Assembly: GCA_947632435.1 (NCBI GenBank)
Contig: CANRPC010000007.1
Location: forward strand, 15,327-79,326
Source of the DNA: an uncultured Bacilli bacterium
GTDB taxonomy: Bacteria; Bacillota_I; Bacilli_A; RFN20; CAG-449
DNA length: 64,000 bases
Direction of reading: 5' to 3'
Shown here: positions 2,779 to 63,613 of the stretch, piece after piece
Layout: the number at the start of each line of letters is the position of its first letter
Numbering within the stretch: the stretch's first letter is position 1
The notes under the pieces: model-generated
Databases searched by the model: none
The model's input: only the letters and a program-made list of their open reading frames with translations
What the model was told of the DNA's origin: nothing
Position numbers and translations under genes: made by a program

Positions 2779-2808
2779 ATTGTAAATATATTTCTTAAAA
2801 AACTATAA
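2779..2808 (+). promoter_or_regulatory. Putative sigma-A promoter for the three-gene SMC-like operon.
   Basis: TTGTAA, an 18-nt spacer, then TATAAT, about 45 nt upstream of the first ORF. Confidence 0.3.
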
Positions 2809-2850
2809 TTTTTTTTGTACTTTTGTTACAATTAAATAAGGGTGAAAAAG

Positions 2851-4296
2851 ATGAATTTATTTGAAAAAATACCAGATAATTTCTTTTCAATTTTATCAAG
2901 TAAGAACAAAAATATTTACGGTATTGCTCTTGTAACTTTATATGAAGCTTTAATAATGTACCGCAACAGAATCCGTAAAAATGATTATATAGATTTATTA
3001 AAATCACGTGGTGAAAAAGAAGTATCTTTATTTTCTTTTGATGATGAAGATATCGGTGAAGATACATCATTAATTTATGAACCAACTTTAAATTCCAAAG
3101 CTAATTTTGTCTTACGTAGATTAATTGATACTGGTTGGGTTTTATTAGAACAAGATGTAAAAACTGGTGCTGAATATTTATTGTTACCTACTTATTCAAT
3201 ATCAATGTTAAAGATTATTTATGAATTTATGAATAATGAGGAGAATAAATATGTTTCTTATGTTCATTCAACTTATTCAGATTTGAAATATGAAGATGAA
3301 TTGCTCGATGAATATATGTATAAAACATTAGAGAGCTCATATAATAAAACTAAAATTCTTGAAGTTGAAGTTGCTAAACTTTTTCACTCGATTCGTGTCT
3401 TTAAAAGACAACTTACAAATATTTTTTCACCTAATGAGGTTTTATCTCAGCATTTTGATAATGCTCGTGAAGATGTTGTTAATCCAATTTATCACCCACT
3501 TAAAACAAGTGATTCGATTATTTTATATCAAGAACCAATATCTTCATTATTAAAAAAATGGTTAATTACTGATGAAGTTAGAGAAAAACTTGTTAAACAA
3601 GCATTAAATGATAATAAAAGTTTAAGAACATTAATAGAAGCAGAAGAAGATGTAATTAAAAAAATTAATTATATCCAAGATACTTATGCCCGTTTAGCAA
3701 ATGAAATTAATGAAATTGATAAAGCTCAAAGTGAATATGTTAAAGCATCAACAGAAAAAGTTATTTATTTAAATAATTCAGATAAATCAATTCGCGGAAA
3801 ACTAGAAACAATATTTTTAGCTTGTGCTAAAACAATAGCAGGAGATAAAAATGGAACATATCCAACAATATTAAAAGATTTAAATAATAGTGTATTATTT
3901 TACCAACAAGGTTATTTAGATAGTGATTCTGTTGCTAAACCTTATAAACGTAATTTCCGTGAAGATGGTGAGCCTTTAGCTCTTGATGATTTTGAACATG
4001 TTCTTGATGAAGGACTAATGCAATCACTTATTAATATTTCTGAAACTTATTCTGAAGAATCAGTCATGGAATTTATGAGAAAGAAATTTAAAAATAAAGA
4101 TGAATTAGAAATGGCTAATATAAAAATTAATGATATTGAAGAATTTATTATGTTGATTCTTGCTTCTTCTAAAGCAAATTCTAAATACTCATTTTATGGT
4201 ATAAATCATCCTAAAGAAAATGAAAATAATCAAATAGTTGTCGATAATTTTAGCGTACCAAATTATACATATTACAAAAAGGAAGAAGGTAAATAA
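2851..4296 (+). CDS. JetA/MksF-like kleisin-family protein, first gene of the SMC-like operon.
   Basis: The ATG at 2851 has an AGGGTG RBS 6 nt upstream. The track's 2842 start would be a GTG lying inside that RBS. The size of about 480 aa and the position directly upstream of a roughly 200-aa gene and a roughly 1100-aa SMC-like ATPase match the JetA (DUF3375) pattern. No catalytic motifs are visible. Confidence 0.5.
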   Translation: MNLFEKIPDNFFSILSSKNKNIYGIALVTLYEALIMYRNRIRKNDYIDLLKSRGEKEVSLFSFDDEDIGEDTSLIYEPTLNSKANFVLRRLIDTGWVLLEQDVKTGAEYLLLPTYSISMLKIIYEFMNNEENKYVSYVHSTYSDLKYEDELLDEYMYKTLESSYNKTKILEVEVAKLFHSIRVFKRQLTNIFSPNEVLSQHFDNAREDVVNPIYHPLKTSDSIILYQEPISSLLKKWLITDEVREKLVKQALNDNKSLRTLIEAEEDVIKKINYIQDTYARLANEINEIDKAQSEYVKASTEKVIYLNNSDKSIRGKLETIFLACAKTIAGDKNGTYPTILKDLNNSVLFYQQGYLDSDSVAKPYKRNFREDGEPLALDDFEHVLDEGLMQSLINISETYSEESVMEFMRKKFKNKDELEMANIKINDIEEFIMLILASSKANSKYSFYGINHPKENENNQIVVDNFSVPNYTYYKKEEGK

Positions 4297-4298
4297 TT

Positions 4299-4904
4299 AT
4301 GTTTGATGAATTATATGAACAATTGACTAATAAAGACAAAGAAATGTTTGCTAAATGCGTTAATGAATTAATGTTAAAATCTTTTATTCTTCGTGAAAAT
4401 TATGATCGAAGCAATAAAATAATGAAACCTAATTATACTTATTCTTTTATTGAAAAAAATATCGATTTAGTTCGTGATTATTTACATTATTCTGGTTGGG
4501 TAGTAGAAAAAGATTCACATCTTGGAGTTATTATGATCCAAAATGAATATCAAGAAAATCGTATTAGAATGGACACAATGACTTCTTTAATGATTTATGC
4601 TTTGCGTTATGCTTATGAATTACAACGGGAACAAAATTCTTTAACTCAAGAAGTTTATTTCTCTTCAGCTTCATTAATGCAATTAATGCTTGATAAATCA
4701 TTACTTCCTCAAGATAAAAGACCATCCGCGGCTAGCTTAGCTTCTTCATATCGTTTTTTAGATAATCATAATATTATTTCACGTATTTCAGGTGAATTTA
4801 GAGATCGTGATTTACAATTTTATATTTTACCATCAATTATTTACATTATTGATAATGATCGTATTAATGCAATATTTGATCAAGTTGAAAAAGCAAAAAA
4901 TTAA
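4299..4904 (+). CDS. JetB/MksE-like (KITE-like) small subunit.
   Basis: The 201-aa ORF starts 3 nt after the upstream stop, giving translational coupling. Size and position match JetB (DUF4194). Confidence 0.45.
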   Translation: MFDELYEQLTNKDKEMFAKCVNELMLKSFILRENYDRSNKIMKPNYTYSFIEKNIDLVRDYLHYSGWVVEKDSHLGVIMIQNEYQENRIRMDTMTSLMIYALRYAYELQREQNSLTQEVYFSSASLMQLMLDKSLLPQDKRPSAASLASSYRFLDNHNIISRISGEFRDRDLQFYILPSIIYIIDNDRINAIFDQVEKAKN

Positions 4905-4919
4905 AGGAGTTTATAATTT

Positions 4920-7900
4920 ATGAAATCATTGAAAAGATTAAGATTAATTAATTGGCATTATTTCTATAATGTCAATGTAGAATTTGATAGAATAAACTTC
5001 TTAACTGGAGAAAACGCAGCAGGAAAATCAACACTTATTGATGCTATGCAGTTATTATTATTAGGTGATACTTCAGGACGTATATTTAACAAAGCGGCAA
5101 ACGAAAAAGCTGGTCGTACTTTAAAAGGCTATTTAAAAGGTGAAATCGGTGATGATGGTGAAGGTGCATATCGTTATTTAAGAAATGGTCGTTTTACCAC
5201 CTACATTGCTATGGAATTTTATGATGATGTTGTTGATAAATCATTTACTTTAGGCATTGTTTTTGATGTTTATGAAGATGGAACTGAACAACATAAATTT
5301 TTCATGTTAGAGGACAAATTCCCACATAATGATTTTTGCAGTTTGAATGTCCCATTATCACAAAAAGAACTCGCTTTATATTTTTCTCAAAATTACAGTC
5401 CAAAAGATTATAATTTCTTTGATACTAATGCTCAATATCAATTGGCTTTAAAAGATCGCTTTGGTAATATCAAAGATAAATATTTTTCTTTATTTAAAAA
5501 AGCAGTTTCTTTTATCCCAATTACTAATATTGAACAATTTATCACGGAATATGTTTGTGATGTTACAGAAAATGTTGATGTATCTTCAATGCGTGATAAT
5601 ATTCAGCAATATAAGCGTTTGGAAATCGAAGCAACAGATATGGAACGAAAAATTTCGAAACTTGAAAAAATACATGAAGCATATCTTGATTTACAAAATA
5701 AACAAAATGATTTAAATTTAGCGGCTTATATTTCTAAGCGTGTTTCTTATCAAGTAAATTTAGATGTGGTTAAAAATTTACAACACGATTTACAATCAAA
5801 TGAAATTCGCTTACAAGAAATAGCTTCAGAAATTGAAAATATTGATAAAGAAATAAAATCATTACAAGAAAAGAAAGAAAATTATATTGCTACGAAAGTT
5901 TCTTCATCTTCTTATCAATTAAGTAAAGATTTAGAATTATCTAAGCAAGATACGATAGCAAAAATTAATCGTATTGAAAATAATATAACTTCTGATTATC
6001 AAAAACTTTTAAGTTATATTAATAATTTTATTAATCAAATTGCTCGTTTAAATGCGGGAATTAATTCTCTTGATGAAAATTTTAAAAAGGAACATTTAAC
6101 TCGTTTTATAGAATTAGAAGATAAAAGTAAAAAACTTTATGATATAGCTACTTCTTTTAAACAAAAATTAAATTCCAAAGAAGATTTATCAAAAGATATA
6201 CTCTTAAGTTTTCGTGATGCCATAAATGAATTTAAAAATGCTTGTAGTGAACATTATGGTTATTTTAAAACTTTAATTAGCTCTGAACTTGCAAAACTTC
6301 ATGCCGCAAAACAAAGTTTACAAGATACATCCGCGACAGGTGGTAAACTTTATGACTATCATTTAAAACAAGTTCATAGTCAACTTATGCATGCCTTAGA
6401 AGATCATTATGGTAAAAAAATAGAGGTATTTTTCTTCGCAGATTTAGTTGATATTAAAGATAAAAAATGGGTTAATGCAATTGAAGGATTTATTTTCTCA
6501 CAAAAAGTTAACATGTTTGTCGAGGAAAAATATTATGAAACCGCGAATAAATTATTAACTAACATTTTACGCCGTAACAATTATTTCCGTACTGGTTTAG
6601 TCGATACAGAACGCTTAAGATCAGCAGGTTTAATTTCTGAAGATAATTCTTTAGCCGAAGAAATTTTAACTGATCATGAAGGTGCAGCTTTATATGCTAA
6701 ATTCTTGTTAGGTAAAATGATAAAATGTGATAACTTCCAAGAAGCAAGAGCTTCAGGACGAGGGTTAACTCCAACTTGTGAAGGTTATCGTAATTATGCT
6801 TCTTTTGTAATTCCAAATGCAAATTATCAATATAAATTAATCGGTAGACAAGTTTCTGAAAGCGATAAGAAAGAACGCTTGAATGAAATACAAAATAAAA
6901 TTGATAAATTAAATGCTGTCAATGAATTTAATAAAGCATTAGAATCTTGTGCTCATGAAGAAACTTTATCTAATAATGAAGCTGAAATTTATTCTTCCCA
7001 TTTAGAAGATGCTTCAATGCTTGAAACATTAAAAAATAAATTGCAAGAATATGAAAGTGAACTTCTTTCTTCAGTTAGTCAAGAAATTTCTATTTTGGAT
7101 AAAAAGATTGCGCAAATTGATGAAGATATTGAATCATTACAAACTAAACGCGAAAGTTTAATTGAAGAAAGAGGCGATTTAAACGCTTCAAATAGACAAA
7201 TTCAAAATGAAAAAATTCCTGCACAAATTGAAAATAGCAATAAATTATTAGATGAAATGAAAAATGAATTTTCTGATGAATTTATTACTCAAGTTGCTTT
7301 ACCAACATTTAATGATGAATTAGAACAAGGTAAATCATTAGGGCAGATACGTAGTGAATACGATGAATTATTTGCTAAAGGTCAATATAAATTACGTAAC
7401 GCAAAAGCTATTTTAAATGAACTTCGTAAAGATTATATTGTTGAATATAAATTAAGTTATGATATAACTCGTGAAGACAATAATGATTTTGACAATGAAT
7501 TATACAATTTAAAAGAAGTTAAATTACCTACTTATAAAGATAAAATAACCGATGCTTATAATAAGGCAACAAAAGAATTTAAAGATGACTTTATCTTTAA
7601 ATTAAAAACTGCGATTGAATCAGTAAGAACTCAAATTGATGAATTAAATATCGCTTTAAATGATGCGACATTTGGTCAAGATTCTTACCAATTTACAGTA
7701 ACTCCTGCACCTCAATATAAAGAATATTATGATATGATAACTGATGAGCTTTTGTTAAGTTATGGTGAAGATGAAAACTTATATCTTGAAAAATATAAAG
7801 ATATAATGGCAAATTTATTTAAATTAATTGGTGATGTTTCTGGTTCTAATGATCAAAATTCCTTATTAGCGCAAAATGTTGCTAAATTTACTGATTATCG

Positions 7901-8309
7901 TACTTATTTACTCTTTGACTTAATGGTTTCTAAAGATGGGGGAAAACCTTATTCTTTAGGTAGAAATATTAAAAAAGCTTCTGGTGGAGAAACTCAAACC
8001 CCATTTTATATTTCTATACTCGCCTCATTTTCCCAATTATATCGGGTAAAGTCGGCATCAAATCTATCTAACACAGTACGTTTAGTAGTTTTTGATGAAG
8101 CATTTTCTAAAATGGATAGAAATCGTATAATAGAATCAATACGTATTTTAAAATCATTCGGATTACAAGTTATTCTATCTGCACCACCTGAAAAAGCAAG
8201 TGATATTTCGAAAATTGTCGATCGAACTTTACTTGTTACTCGTGGTAAAAATCGAAGCTTTGTGGATTCATTTAAAGAACTTGTTACAACTTCTAATGCA
8301 ACAAATTAA
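4920..8309 (+). CDS. JetC/MksB-like SMC-family ATPase.
   Basis: The N-terminus is RLINWHYF...FLTGENAAGKSTLIDAMQLLLLGD (Walker A). A long central coiled-coil-like region is rich in E, K, L and Q. The C-terminus has the ABC signature SGGETQ and Walker B/D-loop RLVVFDEAFSKMD. The protein is 1129 aa, and an AAAGGAG RBS precedes the start. Confidence 0.75.
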   Translation: MKSLKRLRLINWHYFYNVNVEFDRINFLTGENAAGKSTLIDAMQLLLLGDTSGRIFNKAANEKAGRTLKGYLKGEIGDDGEGAYRYLRNGRFTTYIAMEFYDDVVDKSFTLGIVFDVYEDGTEQHKFFMLEDKFPHNDFCSLNVPLSQKELALYFSQNYSPKDYNFFDTNAQYQLALKDRFGNIKDKYFSLFKKAVSFIPITNIEQFITEYVCDVTENVDVSSMRDNIQQYKRLEIEATDMERKISKLEKIHEAYLDLQNKQNDLNLAAYISKRVSYQVNLDVVKNLQHDLQSNEIRLQEIASEIENIDKEIKSLQEKKENYIATKVSSSSYQLSKDLELSKQDTIAKINRIENNITSDYQKLLSYINNFINQIARLNAGINSLDENFKKEHLTRFIELEDKSKKLYDIATSFKQKLNSKEDLSKDILLSFRDAINEFKNACSEHYGYFKTLISSELAKLHAAKQSLQDTSATGGKLYDYHLKQVHSQLMHALEDHYGKKIEVFFFADLVDIKDKKWVNAIEGFIFSQKVNMFVEEKYYETANKLLTNILRRNNYFRTGLVDTERLRSAGLISEDNSLAEEILTDHEGAALYAKFLLGKMIKCDNFQEARASGRGLTPTCEGYRNYASFVIPNANYQYKLIGRQVSESDKKERLNEIQNKIDKLNAVNEFNKALESCAHEETLSNNEAEIYSSHLEDASMLETLKNKLQEYESELLSSVSQEISILDKKIAQIDEDIESLQTKRESLIEERGDLNASNRQIQNEKIPAQIENSNKLLDEMKNEFSDEFITQVALPTFNDELEQGKSLGQIRSEYDELFAKGQYKLRNAKAILNELRKDYIVEYKLSYDITREDNNDFDNELYNLKEVKLPTYKDKITDAYNKATKEFKDDFIFKLKTAIESVRTQIDELNIALNDATFGQDSYQFTVTPAPQYKEYYDMITDELLLSYGEDENLYLEKYKDIMANLFKLIGDVSGSNDQNSLLAQNVAKFTDYRTYLLFDLMVSKDGGKPYSLGRNIKKASGGETQTPFYISILASFSQLYRVKSASNLSNTVRLVVFDEAFSKMDRNRIIESIRILKSFGLQVILSAPPEKASDISKIVDRTLLVTRGKNRSFVDSFKELVTTSNATN

Positions 8310-8324
8310 AAGGAGCTGATTTAT

Positions 8325-8789
8325 TTGCGTTCATATATTTTTGAAGGAAATCAATTTGTTATAGGTTTAGTGGAATTAATTCTTCCTTTTATCTTGCTTT
8401 TGTTAGCGTTAATTTTAATAAGCATATTTATTAAAAAGCGTTCAACTGCGACAGGAATTTGTTTTTTCCTTTTTCTTTCAAGCATTATGATCTTTTTAAA
8501 ATATTATGATTTAGGTTCAATATATTCAAATATATTTAAGATTTTACCTGATTTTGGAATTGGTGATGGAATTAATCACGCGATAGATATCTTAGCTTAT
8601 CCAGTTGAAGAATTGCATTCTTTATTTATAAATCTACTTCTTATTATGAATTTAAATTTAGATGCAGTGACATTTTTTAAAAGTGAAATTTATATTTTAG
8701 TAATTTATGGCTTTTTATTTTTCCTTTCCTTTTTTGTTTTCAAAAAGAAAAAGAAAGAAAAAAGAACATATAGCGATTATGATTTATAA
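8325..8789 (+). CDS. Small polytopic membrane protein (about 4 TM) sitting where a JetD/MksG-type fourth gene would be expected.
   Basis: A TTG start lies 9 nt after an AAGGAG RBS and only 16 nt after the JetC-like stop. There are four hydrophobic helices and a KKKKEKR tail. No Toprim motifs are present. Confidence 0.4.
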   Translation: MRSYIFEGNQFVIGLVELILPFILLLLALILISIFIKKRSTATGICFFLFLSSIMIFLKYYDLGSIYSNIFKILPDFGIGDGINHAIDILAYPVEELHSLFINLLLIMNLNLDAVTFFKSEIYILVIYGFLFFLSFFVFKKKKKEKRTYSDYDL

Positions 8790-8855
8790 AAATTAAAATT
8801 TATAATTAAATAAAAGAGAGTAAATTTTGATGAGTTTATCTTAATAATTAAGAAA

Positions 8856-8888
8856 TAAAGAATAGGGAAAAAACTTCTATCTATTCTT
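8856..8888 (+). terminator. Hairpin with a short T-tract downstream of the SMC-like operon.
   Basis: The stem is AAAGAATAG / CTATTCTTT (9 bp, perfect) with a 15-nt loop, followed by TTTT. Confidence 0.3.
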
Positions 8889-9383
8889 TTAACATATTTA
8901 AGACTTTTTAATACTATGATTCATGATATTTTATATTAATTATAATTAACTTAATGAAATTTTTTTCAAAAAATTTTTTTCATTATATTTGTTGCACTTA
9001 GATTAATAATTAACATTTTTTCGAAAAATTAATTATACTTATTGACTTTAACAAAAAACTTAATTATATTGTTTCTAGTTCATAACAACTTGAACCATAA
9101 CTTTTAATTAAGTTATTTGCTATAAAGATATTAATCTTTATGGTTAAGTGATATTAATTTATCGCTTTGAGTACTAACATTGTTAGGACTCTTTTTTTTG
9201 CTTATTTTTTTACGTTTAAACTAACATTTTTAAATTCATGATTGCTTATAGCAATATTTTTATTATCATATAAAAATTTTTTATTTTATTTACTTATATA
9301 AAATCAATTATGATAATTGATTAATGAAATTTGCCCACTTTTAAAAATTTTTATTTATGATATAATTATAAAGAGGCAATGAA

Positions 9384-10301
9384 ATGAACCAATCAAACTT
9401 GCGTAGCGGTCAATTAAGTTCTATAAGAACAAAACTTTTGATTAAAGATTTTCTTTTCTTGTTTTTAACGTACGGAGTTTTATTGATTTTAATCTTTTTA
9501 GATACCATGTATTATGTAAAATATTTAAATGGTGATGATAATTTAGCTTTCTATTATGATAAAAGTTATTTAAACATCACTGTTTTTATTTTATTGTTTC
9601 TTCTTATAATACCTTATTCAATTTTGACCAAAAAAAAATTAAAAAAAGAAAATCATGAATTTAGACAAAAATATTTAAATTATGTTTTTGCTGAATGTGA
9701 ATTAAATGATATTAAATATAAATTCCGTAAAAAAAATTATGATTTTTCATTGAATGATGAATTAGAATCCCAACTTGGGATAAAAAAGATTACTTATCTT
9801 TATTCTCTTTCGGATATTTCTGTAGAAAGAGTTTTAGATTATATGCAGATAACATATAAAAAAGATAGTGAATTAAAATATGGCGTTATTTTACAACTTA
9901 AAACCGATACTTATTTAGATGGCTTTTTACAAATAAGAACTCGAGGCGAACCATTAAAACTTGATTATGAAAATAAAAAAATTCAACGATTTGGATTCTC
10001 ATCATTTAAAAATAAAAGAAGGTTTGAAATTTATTCTTCTTTAGGAAGTAGAACATACGATTTAGATAAACCAGATATAGCTAATCTTTTATTAAAAATT
10101 AGTAATTATTTAAGATCAAATTATTGTATTACTTATAAAAATTCGTTTATTTCTTTATTTATAGAGGATTTTCAATTTAATCTTACTTTAAATTATCTTG
10201 CCTTTACACAAGATGATTTTGAAAAAAAAATAGATTCTTTAATTCATTTGCATGAACTCACAAATGAATTAATGACAACATTAATGAGTTTTAAAGTATA
10301 G
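9384..10301 (+). CDS. Hypothetical membrane-anchored protein with two N-terminal TM helices and a cytoplasmic domain of about 220 aa.
   Basis: The ORF is 305 aa and is preceded by an extended -10 (TGATATAAT) and an AAGAGG RBS. No recognisable motifs were found. Confidence 0.45.
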   Translation: MNQSNLRSGQLSSIRTKLLIKDFLFLFLTYGVLLILIFLDTMYYVKYLNGDDNLAFYYDKSYLNITVFILLFLLIIPYSILTKKKLKKENHEFRQKYLNYVFAECELNDIKYKFRKKNYDFSLNDELESQLGIKKITYLYSLSDISVERVLDYMQITYKKDSELKYGVILQLKTDTYLDGFLQIRTRGEPLKLDYENKKIQRFGFSSFKNKRRFEIYSSLGSRTYDLDKPDIANLLLKISNYLRSNYCITYKNSFISLFIEDFQFNLTLNYLAFTQDDFEKKIDSLIHLHELTNELMTTLMSFKV

Positions 10302-50429: not shown

Positions 50430-50489
50430 GTATTAAATTAGTAAATAATTAGTATTTATTTAGTAAATTAAATTAATGATATTTAAAAA

Positions 50490-50518
50490 GTGAGAAAGAA
50501 TATTTTTCACTTTTTTTT
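50490..50518 (+). terminator. Rho-independent terminator after mtnN.
   Basis: GTGAGAAA / TTTTTCAC stem (8 bp with one G-U pair), a 5-nt loop, then T8. Confidence 0.5.
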
Positions 50519-50904
50519 GTGCATCAAGATATAGATTTATCTTAATCAAAGCATTTCGCTGCAAATATGATTTTGACTAGAGAAAATAAGAATATTATTA
50601 ATATTTAATCGATTTGACATAATTCTTTTTTATTCAACATGATAAATACATAACTTCGCATAATATACATTATGTAAACTAAATAATAAAAAAACCGATG
50701 TTTCCACAAATTATCAACACTATAAAATTGCTTTAAATATTGATAAATTAAAATTTTTATCAACTTTTCAACATTTCAAAAAATGTCGGTTATTACTTAT
50801 TAATTACTAAATTACTACTAAATAACTACTTTTTTGTAAAATTAAAAAAAACATCTTTTATAATTTTTAAATTTTAAATTTAATTATAAAAGACGTTATT
50901 GTTT

Positions 50905-54294: not shown

Positions 54295-55272
54295 TTAAAG
54301 ATTATTTAAGGCGTAATTATACATTGCTTCCATATATATTCCATATCCTGCTGTTTTATCATTTGAAAGAACATGAGTTACCGCGCCTACAAGTTTATTA
54401 TTCTGAATAATTGGTGAACCTGACATACCATAATATATTCCTCCACCTAATGAGAGTAATCTTTCATCAGTTATCTTAAAAGAAATTCCTTTTTCATCAA
54501 TTGTATCTTGCTTTTTTAAATTTGTAATTTTTATAGAATATTCTTCAACTTTATTTCCTTTAGTGACGGTATATATTTTAGCATTACCGATTTTTACATC
54601 TTTACTTTTGGCCATTTCTATAGGAACATATGTCGAAGGTATTTCATCAATTGAACCAAAGATACCAAATTCAGAATTTATTTTTATATCGCCTAATTTA
54701 TTCTCTAATTCAGTATCAGAGATTTTCTCTCCAACATCGTCACCATTATTTTTAATTCCTATAACATTAGATTCATAAATTGAACCTGATTTTATATCGA
54801 CAATTGAATCGCTATCAGTGTCATATATTTCGTGTCCTAATGCTCCATAAATATGCTTTTCTGGATCGTAGAAACTAACAGTTCCAATTCCTAAAATTCT
54901 TTCTTTAACATATAAACCTGTTTTAATTTTATCATCAACTTTAATAAGTCTTAAGCTTTTATGATAATAACGATTTTTACGTTTAATAGTTAAATCAACT
55001 TTACCTTTATCAATATATTTATTAAATACATTGATAAATGAAGTTAAGGAATCAACTTTGTAATTTTCAATGGCTTTGATGATATCGCCTTTATTAATAT
55101 CAGAATGCTTGCTAGGATTATAAATATCATTACCTATTTTGACGTCGTAAGTTGATGTGACAATTAAACCATCAGGGCGTACTTCAAAAGCAATATTTTC
55201 CCCACCAGGAACTAAAAATACATTGCTGGCAAATAAAGATATTCCAATACCTAAACCTGTTAAGAGATTCAT
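54295..55272 (-). CDS. SpoIVB-like S55 peptidase with a PDZ domain.
   Basis: N-terminal TM then VPGGENI..., PDZ-like INKGDIIKAIEN, and a Ser-protease-like C-terminus. It lies adjacent to recN, as spoIVB does in Bacillus. Confidence 0.6.
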   Translation of the reverse strand: MNLLTGLGIGISLFASNVFLVPGGENIAFEVRPDGLIVTSTYDVKIGNDIYNPSKHSDINKGDIIKAIENYKVDSLTSFINVFNKYIDKGKVDLTIKRKNRYYHKSLRLIKVDDKIKTGLYVKERILGIGTVSFYDPEKHIYGALGHEIYDTDSDSIVDIKSGSIYESNVIGIKNNGDDVGEKISDTELENKLGDIKINSEFGIFGSIDEIPSTYVPIEMAKSKDVKIGNAKIYTVTKGNKVEEYSIKITNLKKQDTIDEKGISFKITDERLLSLGGGIYYGMSGSPIIQNNKLVGAVTHVLSNDKTAGYGIYMEAMYNYALNNL

Positions 55273-61798: not shown

Positions 61799-63613
61799 TT
61801 ATTCTTCTAATCCACCATTTTTATCCCAATTATAAATTAAAATCTTTTTATAAAGTTCAGCTCGTTCGATTATAGAACTTTTTTTAAATTCACTATAGGC
61901 TTTAAATGGCAATTTACTTTTTTGAACAAAGCGAAGGAAATCTGGATTATTTACATATTTTTTTTCATTTAATGTTTGAGCTAAAATATTCTGTTCAAAG
62001 TATTGTTCAACTTTAATTGAATATGGTTTATCATTATATGAAGCATTAAACGATTTTGGCAAAACAAGTAAACATCCAATATTATTTCTCATCGATGCAA
62101 AAGCATAAGAATCATCAAATTCATCTAAATGTTCTTCAAAATGATTGCTCCATATATGCTCTACTTCAATATTTGGTTTATTTAATATATAGTCAGGGGC
62201 AGAAGAATTTTTAGCAACAATTTCCGTAATTAATGATAATAATACTTTTAATTTTGGTTTATTTTGTTGATTTAAGGTTGGTGAATTATTTAAAGAAGGC
62301 AATTCAATTGGATCATGATATAAAACTTCTTTTAATGCTTTAATATCTAAATCTCGAATTTTTTTGCAAAGGGTATAAATAGGTGTTTCTAAAGAACTTT
62401 GTGAAATCATATAATGATTCCAAACTCTCCATGTTAAAACTTTAGTTATATATTTTGATACAATTTTTATTTTTTCATCGACAATTATTTCACTATCATT
62501 GTATTTAATCGCAGATAAAATGAGTGAAGGTTGCAATGTAAAATTATAATCATTATTAACAATTAGATATAAATAATCTTTTGCATTTCTTTTTAAAATA
62601 ATATCGTTAATTTTTTTGTACTGTTTAGAAAAATAAGCAATTTTGTTAATAAATTCAAAATAATCAGAAGATGATTTAAGATTTAATAAAGTTTTATCAT
62701 TATCTCTAAACCAACGATGAAATTCTTTACCAATACGTACAAAATCGGATGTAGCATTTTTTGAAGTTGAAAAATCTTCAGCATAATGTCCCCTAAAATA
62801 TATTTTGAAAAATTCAAATTCAGCCTTTGATTTAGAACTCAATTTTATATTAACAAGACAATTTATAACTTCATCAAAAAGTGTCATTGCTTTAGTTCTA
62901 TTATTTTCATCAATATTTGCAAGCAAATATGAACGTAGCATTTCAACTTGTGTTAATGATAAACCACGATCATTCATTGTTTCAAATATTACATAAGCAA
63001 ATTCATCGCTATTTGTCCATACTTTAGAAAATACAACTTTTTCTTTTATCCAATATACAAAATTAACAATATTTTTTTCTGTTATTTTTTGATTCCAACA
63101 ATCAGCTATATCATTATATCTATCGACAATATTCTGTACATATTGCTGATCTTTATCAGTTGGAGTATAACTTCCAAATTTATATAAAGAAAGCATGCAG
63201 TCTTTTCTTTCTTCAATATCAAGATTAAATCTCAAAGTACCAAAATCATCACTATATATTGCCTTTTCGATATCGGCACGTGGAAATGAAGGTAAATTAC
63301 CATATGTTTTAAGCATGTAAATAAGCAATAATGTAAATGTTGTAATTCTTTGTTGACCATCAATAATGGCGCTACGTTCTCCTTCTTTAACTGATAAAAC
63401 AATTTCTCCCATAAAATATGGATCATAATTTCTTACTTTTTCAATTGTGTCACCATCATTCCAATTCTTAAGAAATTCTATTGAGAGATCATTTATTAAA
63501 TCTTCTAATTGTTTTCTTTGCCAAACATATTCTCTTTGATAAAAATCGACATTAAATTTATCTAAAAATAATTCTTTTAACGGATATGCTTTACTATCAA
63601 CAATTTTTGCCAT
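61799..63613 (-). CDS. DUF262/DUF1524 (GmrSD-family) nuclease, a candidate type IV modification-dependent restriction enzyme.
   Basis: N-terminal FYQREYVW...IIDGQQRITT (DGQQR motif of the DUF262 ParB-like NTPase) and C-terminal ...EVEHIWSNHFEEH... (His-Me/HNH-like DUF1524); 604 aa. Confidence 0.75.
   Translation of the reverse strand: MAKIVDSKAYPLKELFLDKFNVDFYQREYVWQRKQLEDLINDLSIEFLKNWNDGDTIEKVRNYDPYFMGEIVLSVKEGERSAIIDGQQRITTFTLLLIYMLKTYGNLPSFPRADIEKAIYSDDFGTLRFNLDIEERKDCMLSLYKFGSYTPTDKDQQYVQNIVDRYNDIADCWNQKITEKNIVNFVYWIKEKVVFSKVWTNSDEFAYVIFETMNDRGLSLTQVEMLRSYLLANIDENNRTKAMTLFDEVINCLVNIKLSSKSKAEFEFFKIYFRGHYAEDFSTSKNATSDFVRIGKEFHRWFRDNDKTLLNLKSSSDYFEFINKIAYFSKQYKKINDIILKRNAKDYLYLIVNNDYNFTLQPSLILSAIKYNDSEIIVDEKIKIVSKYITKVLTWRVWNHYMISQSSLETPIYTLCKKIRDLDIKALKEVLYHDPIELPSLNNSPTLNQQNKPKLKVLLSLITEIVAKNSSAPDYILNKPNIEVEHIWSNHFEEHLDEFDDSYAFASMRNNIGCLLVLPKSFNASYNDKPYSIKVEQYFEQNILAQTLNEKKYVNNPDFLRFVQKSKLPFKAYSEFKKSSIIERAELYKKILIYNWDKNGGLEE

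What the first reader, a model, noticed from the sequence alone, without database searches (positions are those of the whole stretch)
2851..8789. JetABC-like (MksFEB-like) SMC operon with no JetD/MksG Toprim partner
Three translationally coupled genes of 483, 201 and 1129 aa end in an SMC/MukB-type ATPase. That protein has an N-terminal Walker A (GENAAGKST), a long coiled-coil middle and a C-terminal signature plus Walker B (SGGETQ, VVFDEAF). This size and order are the hallmark of Wadjet JetA-JetB-JetC, equivalently MksF-MksE-MksB. All described Wadjet types also carry a fourth Toprim/topo-VI-like gene, JetD, which is the plasmid-cleaving effector. No such gene follows here. Instead a 154-aa membrane protein sits 16 nt downstream, and no Toprim ORF other than dnaG exists in 64 kb. 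Either this is a nuclease-less MksBEF-type condensin acquired by a small AT-rich Firmicute, or it is a Wadjet-like surveillance complex with a different, unrecognised effector or a trans-encoded JetD.
Basis: partly seen in the sequence, partly recalled or inferred. Interest (0 to 1): 0.8.

Follow-up and report, generated by a model that had tools for sequence, protein, structure and literature searches.

The report
Nuclease-less Wadjet (JetABC) kept as core genes
This is a real three-gene SMC motor of the plasmid-defence "Wadjet" type that has lost its DNA-cutting subunit and is inherited like a housekeeping gene across a whole lineage of uncultured gut Bacilli, so it most likely folds the chromosome and gives a natural example of a defence system turned into a condensin.

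Summary
Window 2851-8309 encodes full-length type I Wadjet JetA (481 aa), JetB (201 aa) and JetC (1129 aa), tightly packed and with intact ATPase motifs. No JetD was found in the 64-kb window or in 29 fetched related loci.

The operon is not a recent insert. In all 25 related genomes examined, four of them found through GlgC without reference to JetC, jetABC sits at the same chromosomal site, directly upstream of glgCDA. In the deeper branch that site lies next to rpmB and other core genes.

JetABC is at least as conserved as the neighbouring Glg genes in most comparisons. Its dN/dS is 0.01-0.13. Its divergence tracks that of its neighbours.

JetD-linked Firmicute systems fall in the same PADLOC JetC subfamily. 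The nearest sampled outgroup (35% identity) is a canonical JetABCD. JetD was therefore lost in the ancestor of this clade.

The two downstream membrane genes are fast-evolving, dispensable and non-enzymatic, so they are not replacement effectors.

Best reading: a domesticated, MksBEF-like loop-extruding condensin. Nuclease-less MksBEF is already known from Pseudomonas, so this is a new member of a known kind.

Two points remain untested: whether the clade still has Smc-ScpAB, and whether a jetD lies elsewhere in these genomes.

The parts
2780..2809 (+). candidate sigma-70-type promoter of the operon (TTGTAA-18-TATAAT)
   Evidence: Consensus scan, 10 of 12 matches, 42 nt upstream of the jetA start. 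This is a pattern match only: such sites are not enriched over shuffled sequence in this AT-rich region.
2851..4296 (+). jetA (mksF-like kleisin), 481 aa
   Evidence: Pfam PF18982 JetA E=7.2e-78, covering 11-428 of 434 profile positions. PADLOC JetA1 PDLC00449 E=1.7e-106, covering 1-462 of 464. Identity to clade orthologues is 59-71% in the window's subclade and about 40% in the deeper subclade. dN/dS is 0.02-0.09.
4299..4904 (+). jetB (mksE-like KITE subunit), 201 aa
   Evidence: Pfam PF13835 DUF4194 E=3.5e-17. PADLOC JetB1 PDLC00502 E=1.9e-67. A clade profile gives weak matches to solved JetB chains 8dk1_E and 8as8_C (E=0.04-0.17). dN/dS is 0.01-0.07.
4920..8309 (+). jetC (mksB-like SMC ATPase), 1129 aa
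   Evidence: PADLOC JetC1 PDLC00519 E=0, 1040 bits, covering 1-1089 of 1097. Pfam AAA_29, SbcC_Walker_B and a weak MukB N-terminal match. A C-terminal profile hits solved E. coli JetC (2.8e-12), P. aeruginosa JetC and MukB (3.2e-7), with no Rad50 or SbcC at E<=0.001. Walker A GENAAGKST is in the window JetC. The SGGETQT signature and Walker B (LVVFDEAF in the window; LV[VI]FDEAF or LI[VI]FDEAF in the rest) are kept in all 14 clade members checked. dN/dS is 0.03-0.13.
8325..8789 (+). small three-helix membrane protein, 154 aa, probably co-transcribed; lineage-restricted accessory or passenger gene
   Evidence: TTG start 15 nt after the jetC stop, behind AAGGAG. There are no Pfam matches above cut-off and no PADLOC hits. 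A homologue sits in the same position in every locus of the window's subclade that has sequence downstream of jetC (15 loci, L015 being cut), at only 19-37% identity; it is absent from the deeper subclade. dN/dS is 0.11-0.13 in the two closest pairs.
9384..10301 (+). divergent DUF3137-like membrane protein, 305 aa, between the jet operon and glgC; frequent but dispensable neighbour

Best explanation
This is a domesticated type I Wadjet system. An ancestor of this clade of uncultured, AT-rich gut Bacilli carried a JetABCD system, lost the JetD nuclease, and fixed jetABC at one chromosomal site upstream of glgCDA. By analogy with studied relatives, the complex would assemble like other JetABC/MukBEF-type complexes: two JetC dimers, each closed by a JetA kleisin carrying a JetB KITE dimer, joined through the JetA N-termini. 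It would use ATP hydrolysis to extrude DNA loops. With no nuclease to recruit, loop extrusion would end in compaction and individualisation of the chromosome rather than in cleavage, as with MksBEF of Pseudomonas aeruginosa and, more distantly, MukBEF. Shown here: subunit identity, intact ATPase motifs, absence of JetD from every stretch examined, vertical inheritance, strong purifying selection, and a JetD-bearing sister lineage. Inferred: loop extrusion, action on the chromosome, and the absence of any nuclease partner encoded elsewhere in the genome.
For: (1) All three subunits give full-length type I profile matches. (2) JetD is absent from the 64-kb window and from 29 fetched related loci; three plasmid JetABCD loci served as positive controls. 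(3) The site is conserved in 25 related genomes: 16 from the genome scan, five from protein look-ups at 42-46% JetC identity, and four chosen through GlgC without reference to JetC. The deeper subclade shows priA..rlmN-prpC-prkC-rsgA-rpe-rpmB(-)-jetABC-glgCDA-leuS, which is core-genome context and not a defence island. (4) Conservation is like that of core genes. Against the window's subclade, JetA/B/C are 55-80% identical, GlgC/D/A 42-83% and LeuS 63-70%. Against the deeper subclade, JetABC is about 38-45% identical, below GlgC (57-65%) and LeuS (60-62%). dN/dS is 0.01-0.13 for JetABC and 0.05-0.23 for GlgCDA. (5) JetA, JetB and JetC pairwise distances correlate with each other at r=0.97. They correlate with GlgD, GlgA and GlgC at 0.53-0.83, the same range as the Glg genes show among themselves. 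(6) The operon's G+C content equals that of its surroundings. (7) JetD-linked Firmicute JetC proteins best match the same PADLOC model, PDLC00519. The sampled outgroup at 35% identity (L113) has a 424-aa JetD_C gene starting at the jetC stop. [quoted passage not shown]
Against: No whole genome of the clade could be read. A jetD elsewhere in these genomes is therefore not excluded, and it is unknown whether Smc-ScpAB is present. Features that dock JetD in E. coli were not shown to have decayed. An aromatic residue persists in the JetC loop that aligns near E. coli F919, and the JetB N-terminus MF[DEF]E is conserved in the clade. Both tests were inconclusive. No chromosome-organising activity has been shown experimentally for any type I JetABC. 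The frequent downstream membrane genes have no explanation under this model. The organisms are uncultured, so nothing here is experimental.
Confidence: 0.62

Rival explanations
1. It is still a plasmid-restricting Wadjet whose nuclease is encoded in trans: a jetD, or another nuclease recruited to JetC or JetB, lies elsewhere on the chromosome.
For: Only the 64-kb window and about 10 kb either side of the operon in relatives were searched. The JetC loop corresponding to the E. coli JetD-docking residue F919 keeps a conserved aromatic residue, and the JetB N-terminus is conserved. Canonical JetABCD systems exist in Erysipelotrichales, for example Bulleidia extructa (PMC12786226).
Against: In all four canonical systems seen here, jetD directly abuts jetC. 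None of the clade loci with sequence downstream of jetC has one. Defence systems are usually patchy and fast-evolving, whereas this operon is fixed at one site and is under stronger constraint than the adjacent metabolic genes. Reconstitution experiments show that JetABC and JetD need matched protein contacts (10.1101/2025.03.10.642339), which argues for co-inheritance and makes long-term separation less likely.
Confidence: 0.15
2. It is a nuclease-independent surveillance or silencing system. JetABC loop-extrudes small circular DNA and sequesters or silences it without cutting, possibly tethered to the membrane by the downstream membrane proteins.
For: A small membrane protein follows jetC by 15 nt, with its own ribosome-binding site, throughout the window's subclade. 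A DUF3137/TtfA-like membrane protein lies between jetC and glgC in 16 of the related genomes. In L020 the glg genes are gone but the DUF3137 gene remains next to jetC. [quoted passage not shown]
Against: Both membrane genes are missing from many otherwise intact operons (L018, L021, L026, L027, L030). Their dN/dS is higher than that of JetABC in every pair compared, by roughly 1 to 10 times. The DUF3137 gene abuts glgC (a 2-nt gap in L028 and L029), which links it to glgC at least as closely as to jetC. No DNA-binding or enzymatic domain was detected.
Confidence: 0.13
3. It is a decaying, functionless remnant of a Wadjet system that lost JetD.
For: The effector is missing, and defence-annotation tools that require all four genes would call the system incomplete.
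Against: Intact ORFs of more than 1100 aa are kept in over 120 protein clusters at 42-100% identity. ATPase motifs are kept in all clade members checked. dN/dS is 0.01-0.13. Only one locus (L016) shows jetC split into two ORFs.
Confidence: 0.02

Closest known systems
Type I Wadjet / JetABCD (E. coli GF4-3, P. aeruginosa PA14; Firmicute examples on Cohnella, Rossellomorea and Butyrivibrio plasmids)
   Same: The JetA (PF18982/DUF5716), JetB (DUF4194) and JetC families and the gene order are the same. The JetC falls in the same PADLOC subfamily, PDLC00519, as the JetD-linked Firmicute systems. The nearest sampled JetD-linked relative has 35% JetC identity.
   Different: There is no JetD. The location is fixed in a core-genome context, not on plasmids or in variable regions. 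Inheritance is vertical and purifying selection is strong.
MksBEF of Pseudomonas aeruginosa (nuclease-less Muk-like SMC complex)
   Same: It is a three-subunit kleisin-KITE-SMC complex without MksG/JetD. [quoted passage not shown]
   Different: The bacterial phylum differs, so JetD loss here was presumably independent. The literature describes MksBEF as scattered and probably spread horizontally (10.1101/2022.10.04.510915), whereas this operon is clade-wide and syntenic. Sequence relatedness to the Pseudomonas proteins was not measured here.
MukBEF of enterobacteria
   Same: It has the same SMC/kleisin/KITE architecture. There is weak sequence similarity: Pfam MukB N-terminal E=5e-4, and the MukB head 3euj at 3.2e-7 with the clade profile. 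It is a lineage-wide chromosomal condensin thought to descend from a Wadjet-like ancestor.
   Different: MukBEF replaced Smc-ScpAB in its lineage and works with MatP and topoisomerase IV. Whether this clade lacks Smc-ScpAB is unknown. The sequences here are still plainly JetABC.
MksBEFG of Corynebacterium glutamicum / EptABCD of Mycobacterium smegmatis
   Same: Homologous SMC-kleisin-KITE core.
   Different: Those systems carry the MksG/EptD nuclease and restrict plasmids (PMC10123090). No such subunit is present here.

Membership tests
Wadjet type I (JetABCD) | JetA kleisin of the DUF5716/PF18982 family | tested here: met
   PF18982 E=7.2e-78, 262 bits against a cut-off of 26.2. PADLOC JetA1 E=1.7e-106 over the full length.
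Wadjet type I (JetABCD) | JetB KITE subunit (DUF4194) | tested here: met
   PF13835 E=3.5e-17, 63 bits against a cut-off of 32.7. PADLOC JetB1 E=1.9e-67.
Wadjet type I (JetABCD) | JetC SMC-type ATPase with Walker A, signature motif, Walker B and a long coiled-coil middle without a zinc hook | tested here: met
   PADLOC JetC1 E=0, covering 1-1089 of 1097. The motifs are present. A clade profile hits the solved JetC structures 9qxt, 8as8 and 8dk2. The part of the middle region read, residues 481-700, has no CxxC.
Wadjet type I (JetABCD) | JetD Toprim/CAP nuclease encoded in the operon | tested here: not met
   No JetD-size ORF follows jetC in the window or in any related locus with downstream sequence. 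The JetD HMM gave no hit in 634 kb apart from the positive controls. The rest of the genome is not testable with these tools.
Wadjet type I (JetABCD) | Restriction of circular plasmids by DNA cleavage | not testable with these tools
   Needs transformation assays or reconstitution.
Nuclease-less MksBEF-type condensin | Kleisin-KITE-SMC operon of the Muk/Mks/Jet superfamily without a MksG/JetD gene | tested here: met
Nuclease-less MksBEF-type condensin | Acts on the host chromosome (long-range contacts, segregation) | not testable with these tools
   This is inferred only, from core-genome synteny, vertical inheritance and purifying selection.
SbcCD / Rad50-Mre11 | Zinc-hook CxxC at the coiled-coil apex and an adjacent SbcD/Mre11 nuclease gene | tested here: not met
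   There is no CxxC in the part of the middle region read, residues 481-700. The neighbouring genes are JetA and JetB, not SbcD. The Rad50 NCBIfam score is 30 bits against a cut-off of 700. There are no Rad50 or SbcC hits in the PDB at E<=0.001.
Smc-ScpAB | Canonical SMC (TIGR02168) with ScpA and ScpB partners | tested here: not met
   TIGR02168 scores 26 bits against a cut-off of 567. The partner genes are JetA and JetB.

The most novel reading that the evidence does not exclude
In this family- or order-level clade of small-genome gut Bacilli, the domesticated type I JetABC has taken over as the main, or only, chromosome condensin. That would be a second, independent replacement of Smc-ScpAB, comparable with MukBEF in enterobacteria. 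It would be caught at an early stage, while the proteins are still recognisably Wadjet and a JetD-bearing sister lineage still exists.
Probability: 0.2. Interest if true: 0.85.

Novelty: new member of a known kind. Interest (0 to 1): 0.55.

Why it matters
SMC researchers currently hypothesise that MukBEF and MksBEF arose when a Wadjet defence system lost its nuclease and was taken over for chromosome maintenance (PMC10586767; 10.1101/2025.03.10.642339). The known examples are either very diverged (MukBEF) or scattered and probably spread horizontally (MksBEF), so the transition itself has been hard to study.

This clade offers a cleaner case:
- The proteins are still unambiguous type I JetABC.
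- A nuclease-bearing relative exists at 35% JetC identity.
- The operon behaves like a core gene: fixed site, vertical inheritance, and dN/dS as low as or lower than adjacent metabolic genes.

Comparing the nuclease-less clade with its JetD-linked relatives could show which changes accompany the switch from plasmid killer to chromosome organiser.

There is also a practical point. Annotation tools that require all four Wadjet genes would either miss these operons or flag them as incomplete defence systems, when they are probably housekeeping genes.

Tried and rejected
(1) Does the clade keep Smc-ScpAB? I could not settle this.
- No smc, scpA or scpB is visible in the window (by eye).
- A B. subtilis SMC sequence recalled from memory, run with phmmer against all loci fetched by then, gave only an unrelated ATPase hit.
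- I used xerD as bait, because scpAB lies near xerD-deoB in Listeria and Staphylococcus (my own knowledge). That metagenome scan returned 80 loci. The syntenic ones (L033-L040, L107) carry ABC-transporter genes after deoB, not ScpA or ScpB. It is also not shown that those loci belong to the jetABC clade.

(2) Have the JetD-docking features decayed? Inconclusive.
- The JetB profile aligns to the solved JetB chains only from about residue 70, so the N-terminal 'IFDR' helix of E. coli JetB cannot be mapped.
- The loop around E. coli JetC F919 aligns with low confidence. A nearby aromatic residue is conserved in both JetD-less and JetD-linked Firmicute proteins.

(3) Is either downstream membrane gene a replacement effector? 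Rejected.

(4) Single-sequence searches of JetB and JetC against solved structures were almost uninformative. Profiles were needed.

(5) Rfam on the whole window gave no hits at gathering thresholds.

(6) The afdb50 fold library was unavailable.

(7) Petrushenko 2011 and Deep 2022 are not in the paper library.

(8) PADLOC hits to MzaA and RT_UG29 among the other window ORFs were not traced to a gene. They are not in the ten ORFs re-scanned and are probably housekeeping look-alikes.


Full report
**1. What is in the sequence**

Window 2851-8309 (+) holds three tightly packed ORFs.
- jetA runs 2851-4296 and encodes 481 aa from the ATG that follows an AAGGGTG ribosome-binding site.
- jetB runs 4299-4904 (201 aa), starting 2 nt after the jetA stop.
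- jetC runs 4920-8309 (1129 aa), starting 15 nt after the jetB stop.
- A 154-aa ORF with three predicted membrane helices starts at TTG 8325, 15 nt after the jetC stop and behind an AAGGAG site.
- A 600-nt non-coding gap follows, then a 305-aa ORF (9384-10301), then glgC, glgD and glgA. A pullulanase-type gene lies upstream at 285-1991.
- G+C content is 0.24-0.27 across the operon, the same as the rest of the window.

**2. Identity of the proteins**

- JetA matches Pfam PF18982 at E=7e-78 and PADLOC JetA1 at 1.7e-106.
- JetB matches DUF4194 at 3.5e-17 and PADLOC JetB1 at 1.9e-67.
- JetC matches PADLOC JetC1 model PDLC00519 at E=0 (1040 bits, full length). It also matches Pfam AAA_29, SbcC_Walker_B and, weakly, the MukB N-terminal domain.
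- NCBIfam models for canonical SMC and Rad50 score far below their cut-offs.
- A profile of the C-terminal third of clade JetC proteins finds solved E. coli JetC (2.8e-12), P. aeruginosa JetC and the MukB head (3.2e-7). It finds no Rad50 or SbcC.
- Walker A (GENAAGKST) is present in the window JetC. The signature (SGGETQT) and Walker B (LVVFDEAF in the window; LV[VI]FDEAF or LI[VI]FDEAF in the rest) are kept in all 14 clade members checked.

This is a genuine type I Wadjet ABC module.

**3. JetD is absent**

Canonical Firmicute systems on Cohnella, Rossellomorea and Butyrivibrio plasmids carry a 411-433-aa JetD immediately after JetC. I built an HMM from these three JetD proteins. I searched it, with filters off, against stop-to-stop six-frame translations of the window and 32 loci (634 kb). 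It recovered only the three controls; the best other E-value was 0.55. A PADLOC scan of the 39 other window ORFs listed no JetD. Only the strongest 25 of 57 matched families are displayed, so that scan is weaker evidence.

**4. It is not an insert**

The genome-collection scan with JetC returned 16 loci from species-level representatives of uncultured gut Bacilli, at 53-69% JetC identity. They share the order pulA, a ~245-aa ORF, jetA, jetB, jetC, a ~150-aa membrane ORF, a ~312-aa ORF, then glgC, glgD and glgA.

More distant homologues (42-46% identity) lie in plainly core context: priA .. rlmN, prpC, prkC, rsgA, rpe, rpmB(-), jetABC, glgCDA, leuS.

To remove ascertainment through JetC, I searched with GlgC.
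- At least 13 GlgC hits share contig-length fingerprints with JetC hits.
- Four GlgC hits without such a match, including one labelled Coprobacillus sp., were looked up. All four have jetABC directly upstream of glgC and no jetD.
- The outgroup Thomasclavelia has glgCDA elsewhere and no jetABC nearby.

**5. It evolves like a core gene**

| Comparison | JetA | JetB | JetC | GlgC | GlgD | GlgA | PulA | LeuS |
|---|---|---|---|---|---|---|---|---|
| Identity to the window, its own subclade | 59-71% | 61-80% | 55-69% | 54-83% | 43-64% | 42-65% | 48-64% | 63-70% |

- Against the deeper subclade, JetA/B/C drop to about 38-45%, below GlgC (57-65%) and LeuS (60-62%) and close to GlgD (46%) and GlgA (49-51%).
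- Within closer genome pairs JetABC is usually more conserved than the Glg genes. In L002 versus L004, JetC is 82% identical, against 72%, 64% and 60% for GlgC, GlgD and GlgA.
- Nei-Gojobori dN/dS is 0.01-0.13 for jetA, jetB and jetC, against 0.05-0.23 for glgCDA.
- Pairwise distances of JetA, JetB and JetC correlate with each other at r=0.97. They correlate with the Glg proteins at 0.53-0.83, the same range as the Glg proteins show among themselves.

This pattern fits long vertical co-inheritance under purifying selection. It does not fit the patchy, fast-evolving behaviour that the literature describes for Wadjet (10.1101/2025.03.10.642339).

**6. Origin by loss of JetD**

JetD-linked Firmicute JetC proteins best match the same PADLOC model, PDLC00519 (1183, 899 and 558 bits), as the window protein (1040 bits) and L018 (1108 bits). 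An exhaustive search of cluster representatives shows a continuum of identities from 45% down to 28%. The one outgroup I could look up, at 35% identity (L113), is a canonical JetABCD with a 424-aa JetD_C gene starting at the jetC stop. The nuclease-less clade therefore sits within type I Wadjet, and JetD was lost at or before its base.

**7. The downstream genes**

- The small membrane ORF occurs in every locus of the window's subclade that has sequence downstream of jetC, at 19-37% identity, and nowhere else.
- The 305-aa ORF is a divergent DUF3137: 4 of 13 orthologues hit PF11335. An orthologue lies between jetC and glgC in 16 of the related genomes examined and is absent from 7.
- Both genes evolve faster than JetABC in every pair compared.

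They are not credible substitutes for JetD. A membrane-tethering role cannot be excluded.

**8. Mechanism**

By homology, the complex should be a kleisin-bridged dimer of SMC motors that extrudes DNA loops using ATP. Without a nuclease, the expected outcome is DNA compaction. The core-gene behaviour points to the chromosome as the substrate, as shown for MksBEF in P. aeruginosa (PMC10586767). These steps are inferred, not shown.

**9. What remains open**

I could not read any whole genome of the clade. A trans-encoded jetD and the presence or absence of Smc-ScpAB are therefore both untested. Attempts through xerD synteny gave no answer. Tests of the JetD-docking surfaces were inconclusive.

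**10. Verdict**

The interpretation as a nuclease-less MksBEF-like condensin is favoured, with confidence about 0.6. The suggestions of a recent insert and of an unrecognised effector are not supported.

Nuclease-less MksBEF is already a recognised kind, so this is a new member of it. It is notable for being a clade-wide, vertically inherited derivative of type I Wadjet in Firmicutes. It would become considerably more interesting if the clade turns out to lack Smc-ScpAB.

Noticed in passing
window 50653-50680 (gap 50430-50904): A dif-like site, ACTTCGCATAATATACATTATGTAAACT, matches 24 of 28 bases of the B. subtilis dif sequence as I recall it. It lies between the convergent genes mtnN and deoB, next to xerD, exactly where GC skew and gene orientation flip. 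The window therefore appears to contain the replication terminus, and jetABC lies about 42-48 kb from it.
   Followed up: partly
window 8790-9383: A 600-nt non-coding gap between the membrane ORF and the DUF3137-like ORF is much longer than in the closest relative (about 130 nt in L011). It contains a promoter-like site at 9042-9070 and, at about 9171-9201, a hairpin followed by a T-run. This could be a small RNA or a leader sequence. There is no Rfam match.
   Followed up: partly
window 61799-63613 (-): A 604-aa ORF matches the PADLOC HEC-06, Orf5 and SspE-type models (E down to 2e-30). It looks like a DUF262-type (GmrSD-like) defence nuclease, so a defence gene does exist in the window, about 53 kb from jetABC.
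   Followed up: partly
window 8325-8789 and orthologues in L002-L017: The small membrane proteins after jetC all end in a lysine-rich stretch followed by an acidic, aromatic tail (DDDF, EDYF, SDYDL). This resembles the C-terminal tail of SSB and could be a short docking motif.
   Followed up: no
L020 13434-14336; L028 and L029 about 9093-9998: The DUF3137 gene abuts glgC (2-nt gap) where glgC is present, yet it stays next to jetC in L020, where glgCDA has been lost. It is unclear which operon it belongs to.
   Followed up: partly
window 54295-55272 (-): By eye this is a SpoIVB-type (S55) peptidase gene, in the Bacillus-like order recN-spoIVB, in a 25% G+C genome. A Cse60 spore-protein domain is also seen in relative L028. 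Together they hint that the lineage keeps sporulation genes.
   Followed up: no
L016 8223-11607: In one relative, jetC is split into two ORFs of 561 and 523 aa. This is either a frameshift, an assembly error, or a rare inactivation.
   Followed up: no
window, unlocated ORFs: Among the 39 other window ORFs, one matches PADLOC MzaA (2e-62) and one matches RT_UG29 (3e-51). They are not among the ten ORFs re-scanned and were not traced. They are probably housekeeping proteins that resemble domains in those models.
   Followed up: partly
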